Shown: positions 3,607 to 16,179 of the stretch, piece after piece | Numbering within the stretch: the stretch's first letter is position 1 | How the letters are laid out: each line of letters starts with the position of its first letter | From: Eledone cirrhosa | Lineage: Eukaryota | Length of the DNA: 20,653 bases | Direction: 5' to 3' | Assembly: GCA_964016885.1 (NCBI GenBank) | Contig: CAXHJY010000756.1 | Span: 1-20,653 of the forward strand | Made by a program: the position numbers and the translations under genes | The notes under the pieces: model-generated | What the model saw: the letters and a program-made list of their open reading frames with translations, nothing else | Told to the model about the DNA's origin: nothing | Database searches by the model: none

Positions 3607-3655
3607 TCACTTACAATTGTTTCATCCAAACCTAGGCTTGGAATCTTCGGAACAT
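3607..3655 (-). ncRNA. Type I hammerhead motif, probably inactivated (U4C, weak stem I)
   Basis: Minus strand reads atgtt-CCGAAGA-t-tccaagc-ctag-gtttgga-t-GAAA-caattg-TA-agtga, then AATAAA and (TA)n. Same strand as the PLE ORF and about 1.45 kb downstream of its stop. Confidence 0.7.
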
Positions 3656-3730
3656 TTTTTAATGCTTGTACATATAATTAACCTCCTATCCAACGCAAGA
3701 GACATACAGATACATATATATATATATATA

Positions 3731-6612
3731 TTGATGTACAGTGGATCGACATATATTATACTATACTATATTTGTATAGTAATTCAAATTTAAAATCAAA
3801 ATTAAAATACAAAATTAAAATACATGCGGCAGATAACACAGATAATGCAAGAGAATAGTCCAATAATCAGATCTAGTAGATAGTGTATGCGTTAGTCATA
3901 TATAGAGCATGCAAGTGTGTCTCATTTATATAAGAGTATTGTGTGGCAAGGTGTTACATGTAATACAAGCACTTTAAGCGGGTAAGCAAGAATATTATGG
4001 TGGTTGTAGTGGGAGGGTATTTTTTGTTTAGATCAAATTAGTATGTGTGCAGAAAAAGAAAAAGAAAGTTATAGTTTTCACATCCACCACCATTTTCACA
4101 TCCAGAAAAAGGAAGTTATAGTTTTCACATCCATCACATATCTTACGATGTATTCGTATTGAATGTTTGATGTAGTAAAGGATTGTAACGTATTGAGGCT
4201 CAGTGTTATTTAATCCATATTTATAGAATAGGTTCTTTCTGCTGCGAGAATTTACAGCGGTTTATTATCCGGAAGTAGGTATGCAATTAAGGGGAGTTAA
4301 TGCGTAAGGGGAGGTAACTAGCTGATTCTCATAACTAAATTCATTTTTCTAACATACGCTATGTGGTGCCTCAATTGAGTCCCTTATATAAAAGGTTATA
4401 TATTTATATTTAATTTTAAATACAGTCTACTCTATCATAATGTATTAAAGGTATCCGTAGGAAGTTGATTACTCCTTATTATATAGCGCTATAATTGAAT
4501 TTCCCACGCAAAGTGCTATATCTTTATATCAAATTCACTTTAAATACAGTCTACTCTCAAAACATATCAAAGGTCCAATTAGAATTTTTGTCTACATAAC
4601 CTTTGATAAGCTATGGAGCAGCGTACGGCTGTTTGCATGATAAAATTAAATACATCTCTTGGGTAAACAAATTCATCCCCCATATACAATGTCATTAATC
4701 TATCGATTAAGTTATAAATGCATATATAATTCATATATAATTCATTGCGCCACACTACATATAATTTAGTCAAATCCCTTATGTTAATAAATTAATCCTA
4801 TATATATCCAATGTTATTACTCTATACATTTAATTACAAATGCATATATAATTCATTGTTGTATCCAGTATTTAAAGTTTATATAAATTGTATTATATTT
4901 CAATCCCTATATAACTATAAGTAATCAAAAGTAATTATATTAGAAGTTGGTGTTTATGGGGATATTTCTAGGGTATAAAGTTATAGATAGATAGAATGAT
5001 TTGTGTCGAGGAAAGGGTGGATCAGAGAGTGTGGTGTAGTGGTGGAAGGCAAGCCCTTGGGGTGCAGTGTAAAAAGTGGTGATAAGTTCAAATCTGACAT
5101 TGTTATATACTAGGTTTAAAGCTTTGGAAAGAGTGTCGGAAGCGGTGCTGGCAAGACGCAAACACTTCCGATTTTTTATTAAGGAGGTTAAGGTTCGAAA
5201 AGATTATAGTATGGGTCTCTAGTAGACAGAGGTTACAGAATTTATTAGGTGGTTTGTACGATGCCGCCCTACCTGTCACTTCCCATTGAAGTGTATATGA
5301 TCTATTCCTAGTTTTCAGATAGTGTATGTAGCTAGATAGTGAAGTGGAGTTGGCTAGACTGTGTTTTTTGAAAGAATGGAGATGTGAGTTGTATCCCGTT
5401 TTGAAGCAGTTCGAAGTAGAGCCTATATAGGTTTCAGAAGAGTTGCTAGTTCTGACCGTGCATGAGTAAATGATGTCCTTGATTAAGCAGTTTTTACCTC
5501 AAGGGCAGGTTCTATTAGATGTACAGTTACATTTATTTTGGATGTTAACCTGTCGGTTATTATGTTGTGTAGAAGTCTGGTTGCTAGGTATTGCATTATG
5601 GCTATGAAGGTTGTCGCTCCTAATGCTATTGATTTCACTAGTGTTATTACTATTATTACTATTGATATCAGGGTTTGTAGTTATTATGTTGTTTTGAAAA
5701 TTTACCCCCTGCTGTGTTTTAGTTTGTTGAAAGTAAGTATTAATCTTTCTTTTATTGCTACTAGCTATGTGGTATGCTATGTTAGGCGTGGTAGAGTAGG
5801 AGATTTTAATGGTGTTATTTATAAAACTATGGTACTTGTGGCCAGATGGGAATTTTTATCCAGTATTGAGAAGAAAGCCTTAGGTAGGTTGGTAGAGACG
5901 TTTAGATTGAAAGGGGGGTTGAAAATGTATTAGTTCTTCTTCTATTTTTGTTTTTGATATCTGTTGAGGTGTTTCAGTTTATAGTATTTTGGTGTCTTCT
6001 CTGGTGCGAGTTACGTTTGATGCTACCCTTCGTATTAGCGTGTGCGTGTGTTTATTACTCTTATTACTATTTGTCCTCATGGACATATTGTGAGAAATAA
6101 TGTTGTAACTATGTGTTTTTATAGGAAGGAACTCAATCTCATTATTATGGCCTGACCTAACTAATGCCTGATTATAGTATTGTGAATTTTTGCTAAATAT
6201 GGTTTCGTCATAAGATAGATTAGAGATTATATTGGATATTCCTTTAGTGATAGAGTTTAATATTGATCTAGGGTGGTTAGACTTGGTATCTAGATAAATT
6301 AGTTTATCGTTAGGTTTATGAAATGGTGTATATATTTTAGAGTCTAGGTAAAGGGTAGCATCAAGGAAGTTAACGTTTTTAGTGTTTTTGTCTATGGTGA
6401 TACTTAGGTTATAGTTTTTGAAAGTTTTATGTAATAGTTTCCTAGTTCTTTCTATATTAAATTTTTTATAGTCTATAAGGCGTAGTGCATCATCGCGGTA
6501 CAAACCACCGTTGAGGTATTTCATTTAGTAGGTATTTGACTTGGTGTCCTTGAAATATGTATAATGAAATAAATATGGTTTTATAAATATAGTTTCCATT
6601 TGTTAATATATC
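3731..6612 (-). mobile_element. 5'-truncated Penelope-like retroelement between (TA)n tracts (ORF remnant plus presumed 3' UTR)
   Basis: Non-microsatellite island bounded by TA runs and containing the RT-GIY-YIG remnant. The 3' boundary is uncertain and may extend to about 3595 to include the HHR. Confidence 0.65.
5103..6540 (-). pseudogene. PLE reverse transcriptase C-terminal half plus C-terminal GIY-YIG endonuclease, Hydra-clade-like; disrupted
   Basis: RT motifs: GLYRDD (YRDD at 6500-6489), NFLDATL, HKPND..IY....SNHP. After a stop and frameshifts: IFNPPFNLNVSTN, KFPSGHKYHSFINNTIKISYSTTPN, CNC....CP*GKNCLIKDIIY (IIY 5474-5466), YIGST (5429-5415), FKTGYNSH, STSLSSYI, CNLCLLE, LLNKKSE..SCQH, stop TAA at 5105-5103. 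The CxC, CxxC and terminal CxH motifs fit the Hydra PLE clade as I recall it. Internal stops at 5981-5979 and 5501-5499, at least two frameshifts, and the conserved Arg replaced by Gly (5396-5394). Confidence 0.93.
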
Positions 6613-6613
6613 G

Positions 6614-15276: not shown

Positions 15277-15740
15277 ATCTAGGAGCAGTTTAGGTATGAT
15301 ACATTTTATTACTAATTATATCTAAATGTTTCTTCTCTCTTCATAATGTATTTTTGATTCTGATACTGGTTCGGTCTAGTTCAACCGGATTGGTCTGTCC
15401 CAGTCATTCATTGAGCAACATCGGTGAGGTTGGCACCCTTAACTCACGGTTGGGTGTGGATGCATTCATGTATATGTGTGTGTCCGCATGTATCTGTGTG
15501 TTTCTAAATATATATGTATATATATATATATGTGTATGTATATATGTGTGTATGTGTATGCGTGTGTGTGTATATGTGTGTGTATGTGCTTTTTTGTGTG
15601 TGTATATATATACATATATGTATAGATATACATATATATGTGTGTGTAAGTGTTTATGTATGTGGTTGTGAGTATGTAAATATATTTTATTCTTTTCATT
15701 CTACAAAAACACTCTGGCCACCTGTAGCTTGTATGTTAAC

Positions 15741-16056
15741 TTGACCACTCACCATAGAAAAATGGTCTGTGCCATGATTCGGTCTTGTTTATCTTCTAAT
15801 ACCAACCCACCTAAAAAAATTTCCTACTATATATCTGTTGAATTACTATTCTTGGGATTTTTATTTATTTTTATTTATTTATTTATTTATTTATTTACTT
15901 TTTCTCTATCTTTTTCTTTTTCTTTTTCTTTTTCTTTTTCTTTTTCTTTTTCTATAATCCAAAAGCACACCGGCTAATTGACCACTCCACAAAGAAAAAA
16001 CGGTCTGTGCCATGTTATGGTCCTGTGTATCTAAATACCAACCTACCCAAAAAATC
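15741..16056 (+). repeat. Diverged ~80-bp direct repeat pair (15741-15824 and 15978-16056) separated by (TTTA)n/(TTTTTC)n
   Basis: ttgaccactcaccatagaaaaatggtctgtgccatgattcggtcttgtttatct..aataccaacccacctaaaaaa versus ttgaccactccacaaagaaaaaacggtctgtgccatgttatggtcctgtgtatctaaataccaacctacccaaaaaa. Confidence 0.85.
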
Positions 16057-16128
16057 CCCCCCCCCCAGCCACCACCCCTCCCTTACCACTACCTAAATGT
16101 ATAAATACCAGAACTTAATATGACACCC

Positions 16129-16179
16129 AGCTTCCTGAAGATTTCATCTGAATGAAACAGTTCTAGTCGTGTAGAAGCT
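16129..16179 (+). ncRNA. Type I hammerhead with intact core
   Basis: agcttc-CTGAAGA-t-ttc-atct-gaa-t-GAAA-ca-gttctagtcg-tg-TA-gaagct. Stem I is 6 bp, the triplet is GUA, and AATAAA at about 16190 precedes a TA array. Confidence 0.85.

What the first reader, a model, noticed from the sequence alone, without database searches (positions are those of the whole stretch)
3607..16179. Recurrent U.U mismatch at the base of stem II in four hammerheads
Seen: 3607(-) GA-T-tccaagc/gtttgga-T-GAAA; 11770(-) GA-T-cc/gg-T-GAAA; 14809(+) GA-T-ccc/ggg-T-GAAA; 16129(+) GA-T-ttc/gaa-T-GAAA. The stems differ yet stay paired while U10.1 and U11.1 are constant. Established: canonical HHRs have a purine-pyrimidine pair here, usually G-C. 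Inference: this is a conserved non-canonical variant rather than decay, and standard descriptors that require the pair would miss it. I cannot say whether it has already been catalogued.
Basis: partly seen in the sequence, partly recalled or inferred. Interest (0 to 1): 0.75.

Follow-up and report, generated by a model that had tools for sequence, protein, structure and literature searches.

The report
Known U·U hammerheads of Penelope retrotransposons
These four motifs are hammerhead-type RNA folds at the ends of a known group of animal jumping genes; their uridine-uridine mismatch is an inherited feature of tens of thousands of copies, is already described in print, and likely slows self-cutting rather than abolishing it.

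Summary
Observation confirmed: four type I hammerhead motifs, all U10.1·U11.1 (0 of 300 shuffles). Each ends a different family of Penelope-like retroelements with Hydra-clade motifs. U·U is the family consensus for 11770 (7,205 copies), 14809 (96 of 100 listed; 28,133 copies) and 16129 (28,228 of 29,300). It is not for 3607: 2 of 100 listed, and that family has almost any mismatch. Across 78 related elements from metagenomes U·U is the commonest state (27 of 61 distinct motifs), so it is selected, not decay. It is already catalogued: Perreault 2011 names it; Cervera & de la Peña 2020 show an axolotl U·U family (~60,000 copies) cleaving weakly alone and well as a dimer; Craig 2021 File S2 lists it, unremarked, in 14 of 25 Hydra-clade families. 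Not found in print: that U·U is the clade's leading, possibly ancestral, state, and that two families also replace core U4 (A in the ~28,000-copy family, C in ~7,000 copies). Cleavage untested. The scan earlier noted a different (C·C) mismatch in this clade and genome; I found no earlier U·U note.

The parts
3607..3655 (-). Type I hammerhead, family B (7-bp stem II, palindromic CAAUUG in stem III, core CCGAAGA = U4C, U10.1·U11.1, predicted cut after GUA between 3612 and 3611)
   Evidence: family counts
3601..5102 (-). 3' untranslated region / pseudo-LTR of the family B element, ending in a (TA)n array
   Evidence: BLAST to loci L088, L089, L105, L109, L110
5103..6600 (-). 5'-truncated, broken (stops and frameshifts) Penelope-like ORF: RT with GLYRDD motif, CxCX5C linker, C-terminal GIY-YIG-type endonuclease with CxxC...E...N...CxH (Hydra-clade motifs)
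   Evidence: clade description; Pfam gave no hit
11770..11807 (-). Type I hammerhead, family A (2-bp stem II, U·U, palindromic CAAUUG, predicted cut after GUU between 11774 and 11773), in a ~95-bp 5'-truncated insertion (11738-11832) ending in (TA)n
   Evidence: endonuclease ~200 bp upstream in longer copies
14809..14859 (+). Type I hammerhead, family C (3-bp stem II, U·U, core CAGAAGA = U4A, predicted cut after CUU between 14854 and 14855), in a 5'-truncated insertion 14675-14883
14583..14678 (-). Inverted short copy ('tail') of the family C element, head to head with the forward copy, as is typical of Penelope-like insertions
   Evidence: sequence against family C flanks
16129..16179 (+). 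Type I hammerhead, family D (3-bp stem II, U·U, canonical CUGAAGA core, predicted cut after GUA between 16173 and 16174), at the end of a 3' region of about 15706-16190 ending in (TA)n
11596..11631 (+). Additional type I hammerhead, U3-A8 core, canonical G10.1-C11.1 (right arm of the inverted pair 11467-11700)
11504..11539 (-). Inverted partner of the additional hammerhead (G10.1-C11.1, palindromic ACCGGU stem III)

Best explanation
The four motifs are type I hammerhead folds in the 3' pseudo-LTRs of four families of Penelope-like retroelements with Hydra-clade motifs, and U10.1·U11.1 is an inherited variant of the first pair of stem II that likely still stacks as a non-canonical U·U pair and would give a slow ribozyme that is predicted to cut best as a dimer or with the element's protein. 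Shown: the fold, the copy numbers, the link to the endonuclease genes, and the retention of U·U while stems and loops change. Inferred: U·U is the mismatch most compatible with the active core, reached by single steps along G-C, G·U, U·U, A-U. The element tolerates it, or is helped by it, because reverse transcription must start 3' of the cut site on RNA that is still uncut or religated. In families B and C further core changes (U4C, U4A) likely lower cutting further.
For: Family fixation: D 28,228 of 29,300 U·U while loop II takes 20 forms in the first 100 rows, 7 of them recurring three or more times (by eye). C: 96 of 100 listed, only 426 of 28,133 non-U at 10.1; no variant at 5% or more at 14815, 14821 or 14833 among 10,352 contigs of run X1. 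A: 7,205 U·U against at most 452 non-U at 10.1. Backward-pattern controls were 0. Unbiased 1.4 Mb: 127 motifs, 0 in reversed DNA, 41 U·U, the commonest state. Endonucleases linked to A, C and D are about 28%, 40-45% and 90% identical to the window's. Metagenome relatives: 62 of 78 loci carry a sense-strand motif; 27 of 61 distinct motifs are U·U, and 27 of 31 mismatches are U·U. Among these, 10.2-11.2 is U-A 19 / C-G 8, and 2.1-1.1 takes all four Watson-Crick types. On the protein tree U·U needs 8 changes, 7 forced by starred branches. Activity of the variant: the axolotl U·U ribozyme cleaved 22% in 1 h as a monomer and much better as a dimer (PMC7229834). U·U is the best-tolerated mispair, per Perreault citing Ruffner 1990. 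Stem III is palindromic or nearly so in all four. A Penelope hammerhead cut only with the element's protein and was dispensable for insertion in vitro (PMC11167929). Copies carry sequence 3' of the cut site, and only 1 of 100 family A copies anchored 3' of the site begins at it (by eye).
Against: No cleavage data for these sequences. Family B does without U·U (2 of 100) and family C lacks U4 almost throughout, so in this genome the position may simply be relaxed. ViennaRNA does not give the hammerhead as the lowest-energy monomer fold for any of the four, and stem II of 16129 has probability 0.00. The axolotl ribozyme has loop-loop tertiary contacts, which I did not identify here. G-C, A-U and G·U families also amplify in this genome, including a young family with intact ORFs that has A-U, so U·U is not required for success.
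Confidence: 0.7

Rival explanations
1. The fold is kept mainly as a structural landmark for the element's RT-endonuclease protein, and catalysis is largely dispensable. U·U, U4A and U4C are signs of relaxed catalytic constraint.
For: Non-A at position 4 in only 1,035 copies of the ~28,000-copy family C (18 of 20 loci CAGAAGA). 7,043 CCGA against 296 CUGA in family B, with six different mismatches at 10.1/11.1. No pile-up of insertion ends at the cut site. Catalytic mutants did not affect insertion of an anole element in vitro.
Against: All 27 distinct U·U motifs from metagenomes keep U4, and two show C3-G8 to U3-A8 covariation (L334, L382). U·U makes up 27 of 31 mismatches, matching the best-tolerated mispair for catalysis. 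The U4C variant still supports viroid infectivity.
Confidence: 0.18
2. U·U is neutral: it arose in a few master copies and hitch-hiked to high copy number (founder effect or decay).
For: Copy number reflects few masters. Family B subfamilies each fixed a different mismatch. Sister tandem families differ only by A-U versus U·U.
Against: U·U persists on many deep branches with long terminal lengths while loops and stems are replaced. It occurs in Hydra, sea cucumber and copepod families. Other mismatches are rare outside family B (4 of 31).
Confidence: 0.07
3. The two uridines make a register switch: A9 pairs with U11.1 and U10.1 with the purine at 11.2, parking the ribozyme in an inactive fold.
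For: Position 11.2 is a purine in all four window motifs and in 27 of 27 metagenomic U·U motifs.
Against: Predicted probability of the slipped pairs is 0.04 or less in all four. One tandem U·U family has U at 11.2. The G-C motifs listed mostly have U10.2-A11.2 too.
Confidence: 0.05

Closest known systems
Hammerheads of Hydra-clade Penelope-like elements (Craig et al. 2021, PMC8557442; read: passages, section 11, supplement part 2 with Files S1 and S2)
   Same: Same position after a C-terminal endonuclease, (TA)n targets and quasi-palindromic stem III. File S2 writes 14 of 25 families as ctgatgaT | stem II | Tgaa (or ctgaagaT, ctgacgaT), which is U10.1·U11.1, in Hydra, Apostichopus and Caligus.
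   Different: The table calls them canonical and the passages I read do not remark on the mismatch. No row has U4A or U4C. The families here are other sequences with much higher copy numbers.
Axolotl retrozyme hammerhead HHR_Amex2 (Cervera & de la Peña 2020, PMC7229834; read: passages and section 15)
   Same: Animal type I hammerhead with 'a U U mismatch at the base' of helix II, ~60,000 copies; weak monomer and efficient dimer cleavage shown.
   Different: It is a tandem non-autonomous retrozyme with loop 1-loop 2 contacts. The motifs here are mostly dispersed ends of RT-coding elements.
Natural U10.1-U11.1 core variant (Perreault et al. 2011, PMC3088659; read: section 8, passages, Fig. S6 text)
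   Same: Same mismatch at the same numbered positions, noted as surprising and as the best-tolerated mispair.
   Different: Presented as a rare variation. The active core variants in Fig. S6 are from phages, bacteria and a metagenome, not from animal retroelements.
Minimal PLE hammerheads (Cervera & de la Peña 2014, PMC4209133; read: main text parts 1-2 of 4, supplement file 2 parts 1-2)
   Same: Type I motifs in pseudo-LTRs, palindromic helix III, dimer model, low in vitro activity. The Hydra row of Fig. S3 reads, by my reading of the extracted text, as the same U·U motif as Craig's Penelope-1_HM.
   Different: The consensus is an extra unpaired base after A9 plus a conserved G10.1-C11.1. Here both sides carry a U, giving a symmetric 1x1 mismatch, and stem III is longer.

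Membership tests
Type I hammerhead ribozyme | Three helices around the core with stem I open | tested here: met
   pair types vary across families. Stem I of the 3607 copy is weak.
Type I hammerhead ribozyme | Core C3 G5 A6 G8 A9, G12 A13 A14, A15.1-U16.1, H17 | tested here: met
   all four motifs
Type I hammerhead ribozyme | U4 | tested here: not met
   Met in 11770 and 16129. C in 3607 and A in 14809, family-wide. U4C is a known natural variant; I found no paper on a natural U4A family (listing only).
Type I hammerhead ribozyme | Standard base pair at 10.1-11.1 | tested here: not met
   U·U in all four; a published, active exception
Type I hammerhead ribozyme | Site-specific self-cleavage after H17 | not testable with these tools
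   needs an in vitro assay or end-mapping reads
Rfam hammerhead families (clan CL00010) | Match to a covariance model | tested here: not met
   no hammerhead hit at E up to 10 for any of the four; also none for 10 G-C and 10 U·U clade relatives
Hydra-clade Penelope-like element | [quoted passage not shown] | tested here: met
   window 6600 to 5103 (-), by motifs; an endonuclease lies upstream of A, B, C and D hammerheads in longer copies. Pfam gave no hit.
Hydra-clade Penelope-like element | [quoted passage not shown] | tested here: met
   CNCTSNRTC in the window; C87, C90, E93, N106, C115, H117 invariant in 9 of 9 aligned endonucleases; definition. The linker was read only in the window copy and in homologues.
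Hydra-clade Penelope-like element | N-terminal RWK and DKT motifs | tested here: inconclusive
   The window copy is 5'-truncated. Full-length homologues show LRW[KR]/MKWR and DKT, but these are not families A-D.
Hydra-clade Penelope-like element | Insertion into (TA)n, with inverted 5'-truncated partner and optional tail | tested here: met
Hydra-clade Penelope-like element | Phylogenetic placement among Craig's reference families | not tested
   the reference proteins could not be brought into the tree; one search holds only window, own-genome and metagenome rows
Non-LTR retrozyme | Short non-coding tandem repeats with one hammerhead per unit | tested here: not met
   the four window copies are dispersed ends of coding elements; other U·U families in the genome are tandem

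The most novel reading that the evidence does not exclude
U10.1·U11.1, not G-C, is the ancestral and selected state of Hydra-clade Penelope hammerheads. It acts as a built-in brake that keeps the RNA uncut until dimerisation or the element's own protein switches cutting on, and this genome shows the next step: a 28,000-copy family that has also given up core U4 and still spread.
Probability: 0.3. Interest if true: 0.55.

Novelty: new member of a known kind. Interest (0 to 1): 0.3.

Why it matters
The mismatch itself is not new. What is useful: (1) it is the commonest state in a whole retroelement clade and in about a third of the C3-G8 hammerheads sampled in this genome (41 of 127), so searches that require a 10.1-11.1 pair undercount animal hammerheads; (2) natural sister families with G-C, G·U, A-U, U·U, C·A and A·G at this position, plus family-wide U4A and U4C, give a ready series for asking whether Penelope-like elements need their ribozyme to cut at all, which the papers I read leave open.

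Tried and rejected
Register-switch idea: slipped pairs predicted at 0.04 or less. U·U as by-product of a start codon: reading ATG from U11.1 runs into a stop within four codons in families B and D, and there is no ATG in A or C (sequence). Genomic trace of cleavage: 1 of 100 unbiased family A copies starts at the cut site (by eye); the script gave 1 of 67, 0 of 55 and 0 of 11 for A, C and D, but many of those loci were chosen for an intact motif and are biased against such ends. Expression: no RNA holder listed; no evidence either way. Runs X4 and X5 hold family C only at low depth (9 and 1 contigs) and are not used as evidence. Rfam: no hammerhead hit, for G-C relatives either; the whole-window scan showed only 150 of 248 rows, none a hammerhead. 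Pfam: no hit on RT or endonuclease pieces. Longer RT context for families A-D could not be fetched, so own-genome rows in the tree are partly short (7 rows under half filled). Lünse et al. 2017 and Nelson & Uhlenbeck 2008 were not held, and Ruffner 1990 was not looked up and is cited only through Perreault; any of them may already discuss this variant. Perreault's Text S1 (.doc descriptors) could not be read and Dataset S1 was not read. File 1 of the Cervera 2014 supplement was not searchable. One search returned an unrelated paper and was not used.
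Full report
Observation. The window is a microsatellite-rich contig of a 3.0-Gb animal genome; I did not identify the host. A wider scan added an inverted pair at 11599(+) and 11536(-) with a U3-A8 core and a normal G-C pair. Two of the four U·U motifs lack U4 and two have U17.

Is U·U family consensus? Pattern counts in the genome, each with a backward control of 0, are as follows. Family A (11770): 7,205 U·U copies against 452 with another base at 10.1, a set that also holds other families. Family D (16129): 28,228 U·U of 29,300, while loop II shows 20 forms in the first 100 rows, seven recurring at least three times (by eye). 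Family C (14809): 28,133 copies, 96 of the first 100 U·U, 426 non-U at 10.1; 10,352 contigs of run X1, which may be the same organism or sample, show no variant at 5% or more at either U or at A4. Family B (3607) is the exception: 7,043 copies with a non-U4 core and 296 with CUGA; the first 100 rows are A·G 57, C·A 13, U-A 13, C·U 10, C·C 3, A·A 2, U·U 2 (hand count). In 140 evenly spaced 10-kb stretches (1.4 Mb) my descriptor found 127 C3-G8 motifs and none in reversed DNA: U·U 41, A-U 31, G-C 12, extra base plus G-C 13, G·U 10, A·A 7, A·C 5, other 8. Tandem copies are counted singly, so the share is rough; it extrapolates to about 88,000, against about 62,000 from the exact patterns for A, C and D.

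What carries them. A broken RT-endonuclease ORF runs from about 6600 to 5103 on the minus strand, ahead of the 3607 motif. In longer copies an endonuclease lies upstream on the same strand about 200 bp (A), 950-1,080 bp (C), 455 bp (D, one locus) and 1,100-1,190 bp (B) from the motif. These endonucleases are about 28%, 40-45%, 90% and 64-83% identical to the window's. They have the CxCX5C linker and CxxC...E...N...CxH layout that Craig et al. 2021 give for the Hydra clade, and the insertions sit in (TA)n with inverted partners and optional tails. Pfam did not recognise them, and I did not place them in a tree with the published references, so the clade name rests on motifs.

Beyond this genome. 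Of these, 62 carry a sense-strand hammerhead; minus strands gave 4 hits and reversed DNA 0. Of 61 distinct motifs 27 are U·U, 16 G-C, 6 G·U, 4 A-U, 4 other mismatches, 3 extra base plus G-C, 1 ambiguous. The 27 keep U4, and their neighbouring pairs vary: 10.2-11.2 U-A 19 / C-G 8; 10.3-11.3 G-C 21 / C-G 4 / other 2; four Watson-Crick types at 2.1-1.1. Pairing was required by the descriptor, so this shows variety of pairs, not a formal covariation test. A protein tree of 68 rows (58 metagenomic, 10 own; 20 metagenomic loci dropped for lack of a motif near the ORF; quick search, SH-aLRT only) needs 8 changes for U·U, 7 of them forced by starred branches. U·U is the sole most-parsimonious state at 36 of 67 inner nodes and G-C at 16. 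There is no outgroup, so ancestry is suggested, not shown. Two rows with an extra-base motif may be neighbours rather than the element's own and were treated as missing.

What is in print. Searches. Perreault 2011 (PMC3088659; section 8, passages, Fig. [quoted passage not shown] Their filter otherwise rejected such hits. Cervera & de la Peña 2020 (PMC7229834; passages, section 15) describe about 60,000 axolotl motifs with a U·U at the base of helix II, 22% cleavage in an hour as a monomer and much more as a dimer. Craig 2021 File S2 lists 25 Hydra-clade families; by my count 14 are U·U, written with the two uridines in the 'core' columns and headed 'canonical'. Cervera 2014 (PMC4209133; main text parts 1-2, supplement parts 1-2) gives the general PLE consensus as an extra base plus G10.1-C11.1, and its Hydra row appears to be the same U·U motif. 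Frangieh 2024 (PMC11167929; parts 1-2 of 4) found a Penelope hammerhead that cuts only with the element's protein, is not needed for insertion in vitro, and lies upstream of the RT start sites. From the 2026 retrozyme preprint (part 1 and passages) and Weinberg 2019 (passages) I took nothing on U·U. I found no statement that U·U is the leading state of the Hydra clade, nor a natural U4A family, in those searches. Lünse 2017 was not held and may bear on this.

How it likely works. Shown: fold, numbers, linkage, retention. Inferred: U·U forms a non-canonical pair that keeps stem II stacked on the G12·A9 pair (geometry recalled, not tested) at a cost in rate, and perhaps loses the purine N7 metal contact at 10.1 (recalled). 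Stem III is palindromic (A, B) or nearly so (C, D, and most clade relatives), which fits the dimer model. Cofolding gave lower energy for dimers, with an intermolecular stem III for A but not for B, C or D, and no monomer folded into the hammerhead as its lowest-energy form. Every intact copy carries sequence 3' of the cut site, so the template was uncut or religated there, and insertion ends do not pile up at the site (1 of 100; one search is biased). The main rival, relaxed catalysis with a structural role, is strongest for families B and C.

Descriptors. Rfam does not find the four motifs, but it also misses 10 of 10 G-C and 10 of 10 U·U relatives, so U·U is not the reason there.

Verdict. 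Real, inherited and selected in three of four families, but a known variant in a known clade. The new content is the scale, the clade-level prevalence and the U4 variants. Interest 0.3.

Noticed in passing
window 11467-11700: Head-to-head inverted pair of a short element; each arm carries a type I hammerhead with the U3-A8 covariant core and G10.1-C11.1. Six related copies (four G-C, one G·U, one A·C) were in 1.4 Mb of random DNA. Rfam reads the hairpin as miRNA-like noise.
   Followed up: partly
window 14814-14820; family C genome-wide: Family-wide U4A core (CAGAAGA): only 1,035 copies have another base there, some probably made by inversion junctions. No paper on a natural U4A family turned up in one search (listing only).
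   Followed up: partly
window 3644-3650; family B genome-wide: Family-wide U4C core (7,043 non-U4 copies, first 100 all CCGA, against 296 CUGA) with G never at 10.1 in 200 listed rows.
   Followed up: partly
L123:1500-3025 versus window 3601-6214 and 15882-16190: One locus has an ORF 90% identical to the window's family B element but the short family D 3' end, switching about 130 nt after the ORF. This suggests pseudo-LTR/ribozyme swapping between families; one example only.
   Followed up: partly
G000:C1, e.g. 17640175-17640234, 20539621-20539678, 55804583-55804642: Many inverted pairs join within 0-10 bases of C3, some exactly at it. This could be RT stalling at the fold, but the listing is biased towards intact motifs.
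   Followed up: no
L191-L220 (e.g. G000:C6:26651931): A young Hydra-type family with 97-100% identical endonucleases and open frames up to 748 aa; its hammerhead has A10.1-U11.1 and a mismatch at the fourth pair of stem II. The first look counted 56,466 endonuclease candidates in the genome.
   Followed up: partly
L044, L049, L053, L070, L075, L079: Tandem retrozyme-like arrays (310-bp and ~430-bp units). The 310-bp family has sister forms with A-U and with U·U at 10.1/11.1.
   Followed up: no
window 2700-2900 and 16760-16970: Two copies, in opposite orientation, of a very abundant ~200-bp SINE-like repeat (up to 98 BLAST hits among the loci held).
   Followed up: no
window 1976-2317; 6614-10828; 16970-20646: An (ACC/AAC)-type minisatellite and two TA-rich microsatellite arrays of about 4 kb. 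The window is the whole of contig C783.
   Followed up: no
L379:2636-2682 and 2917-2963 (-): Two canonical Hammerhead_1 matches above the gathering score, 281 bp apart, next to a Hydra-type element in a marine metagenome contig; likely a retrozyme.
   Followed up: no
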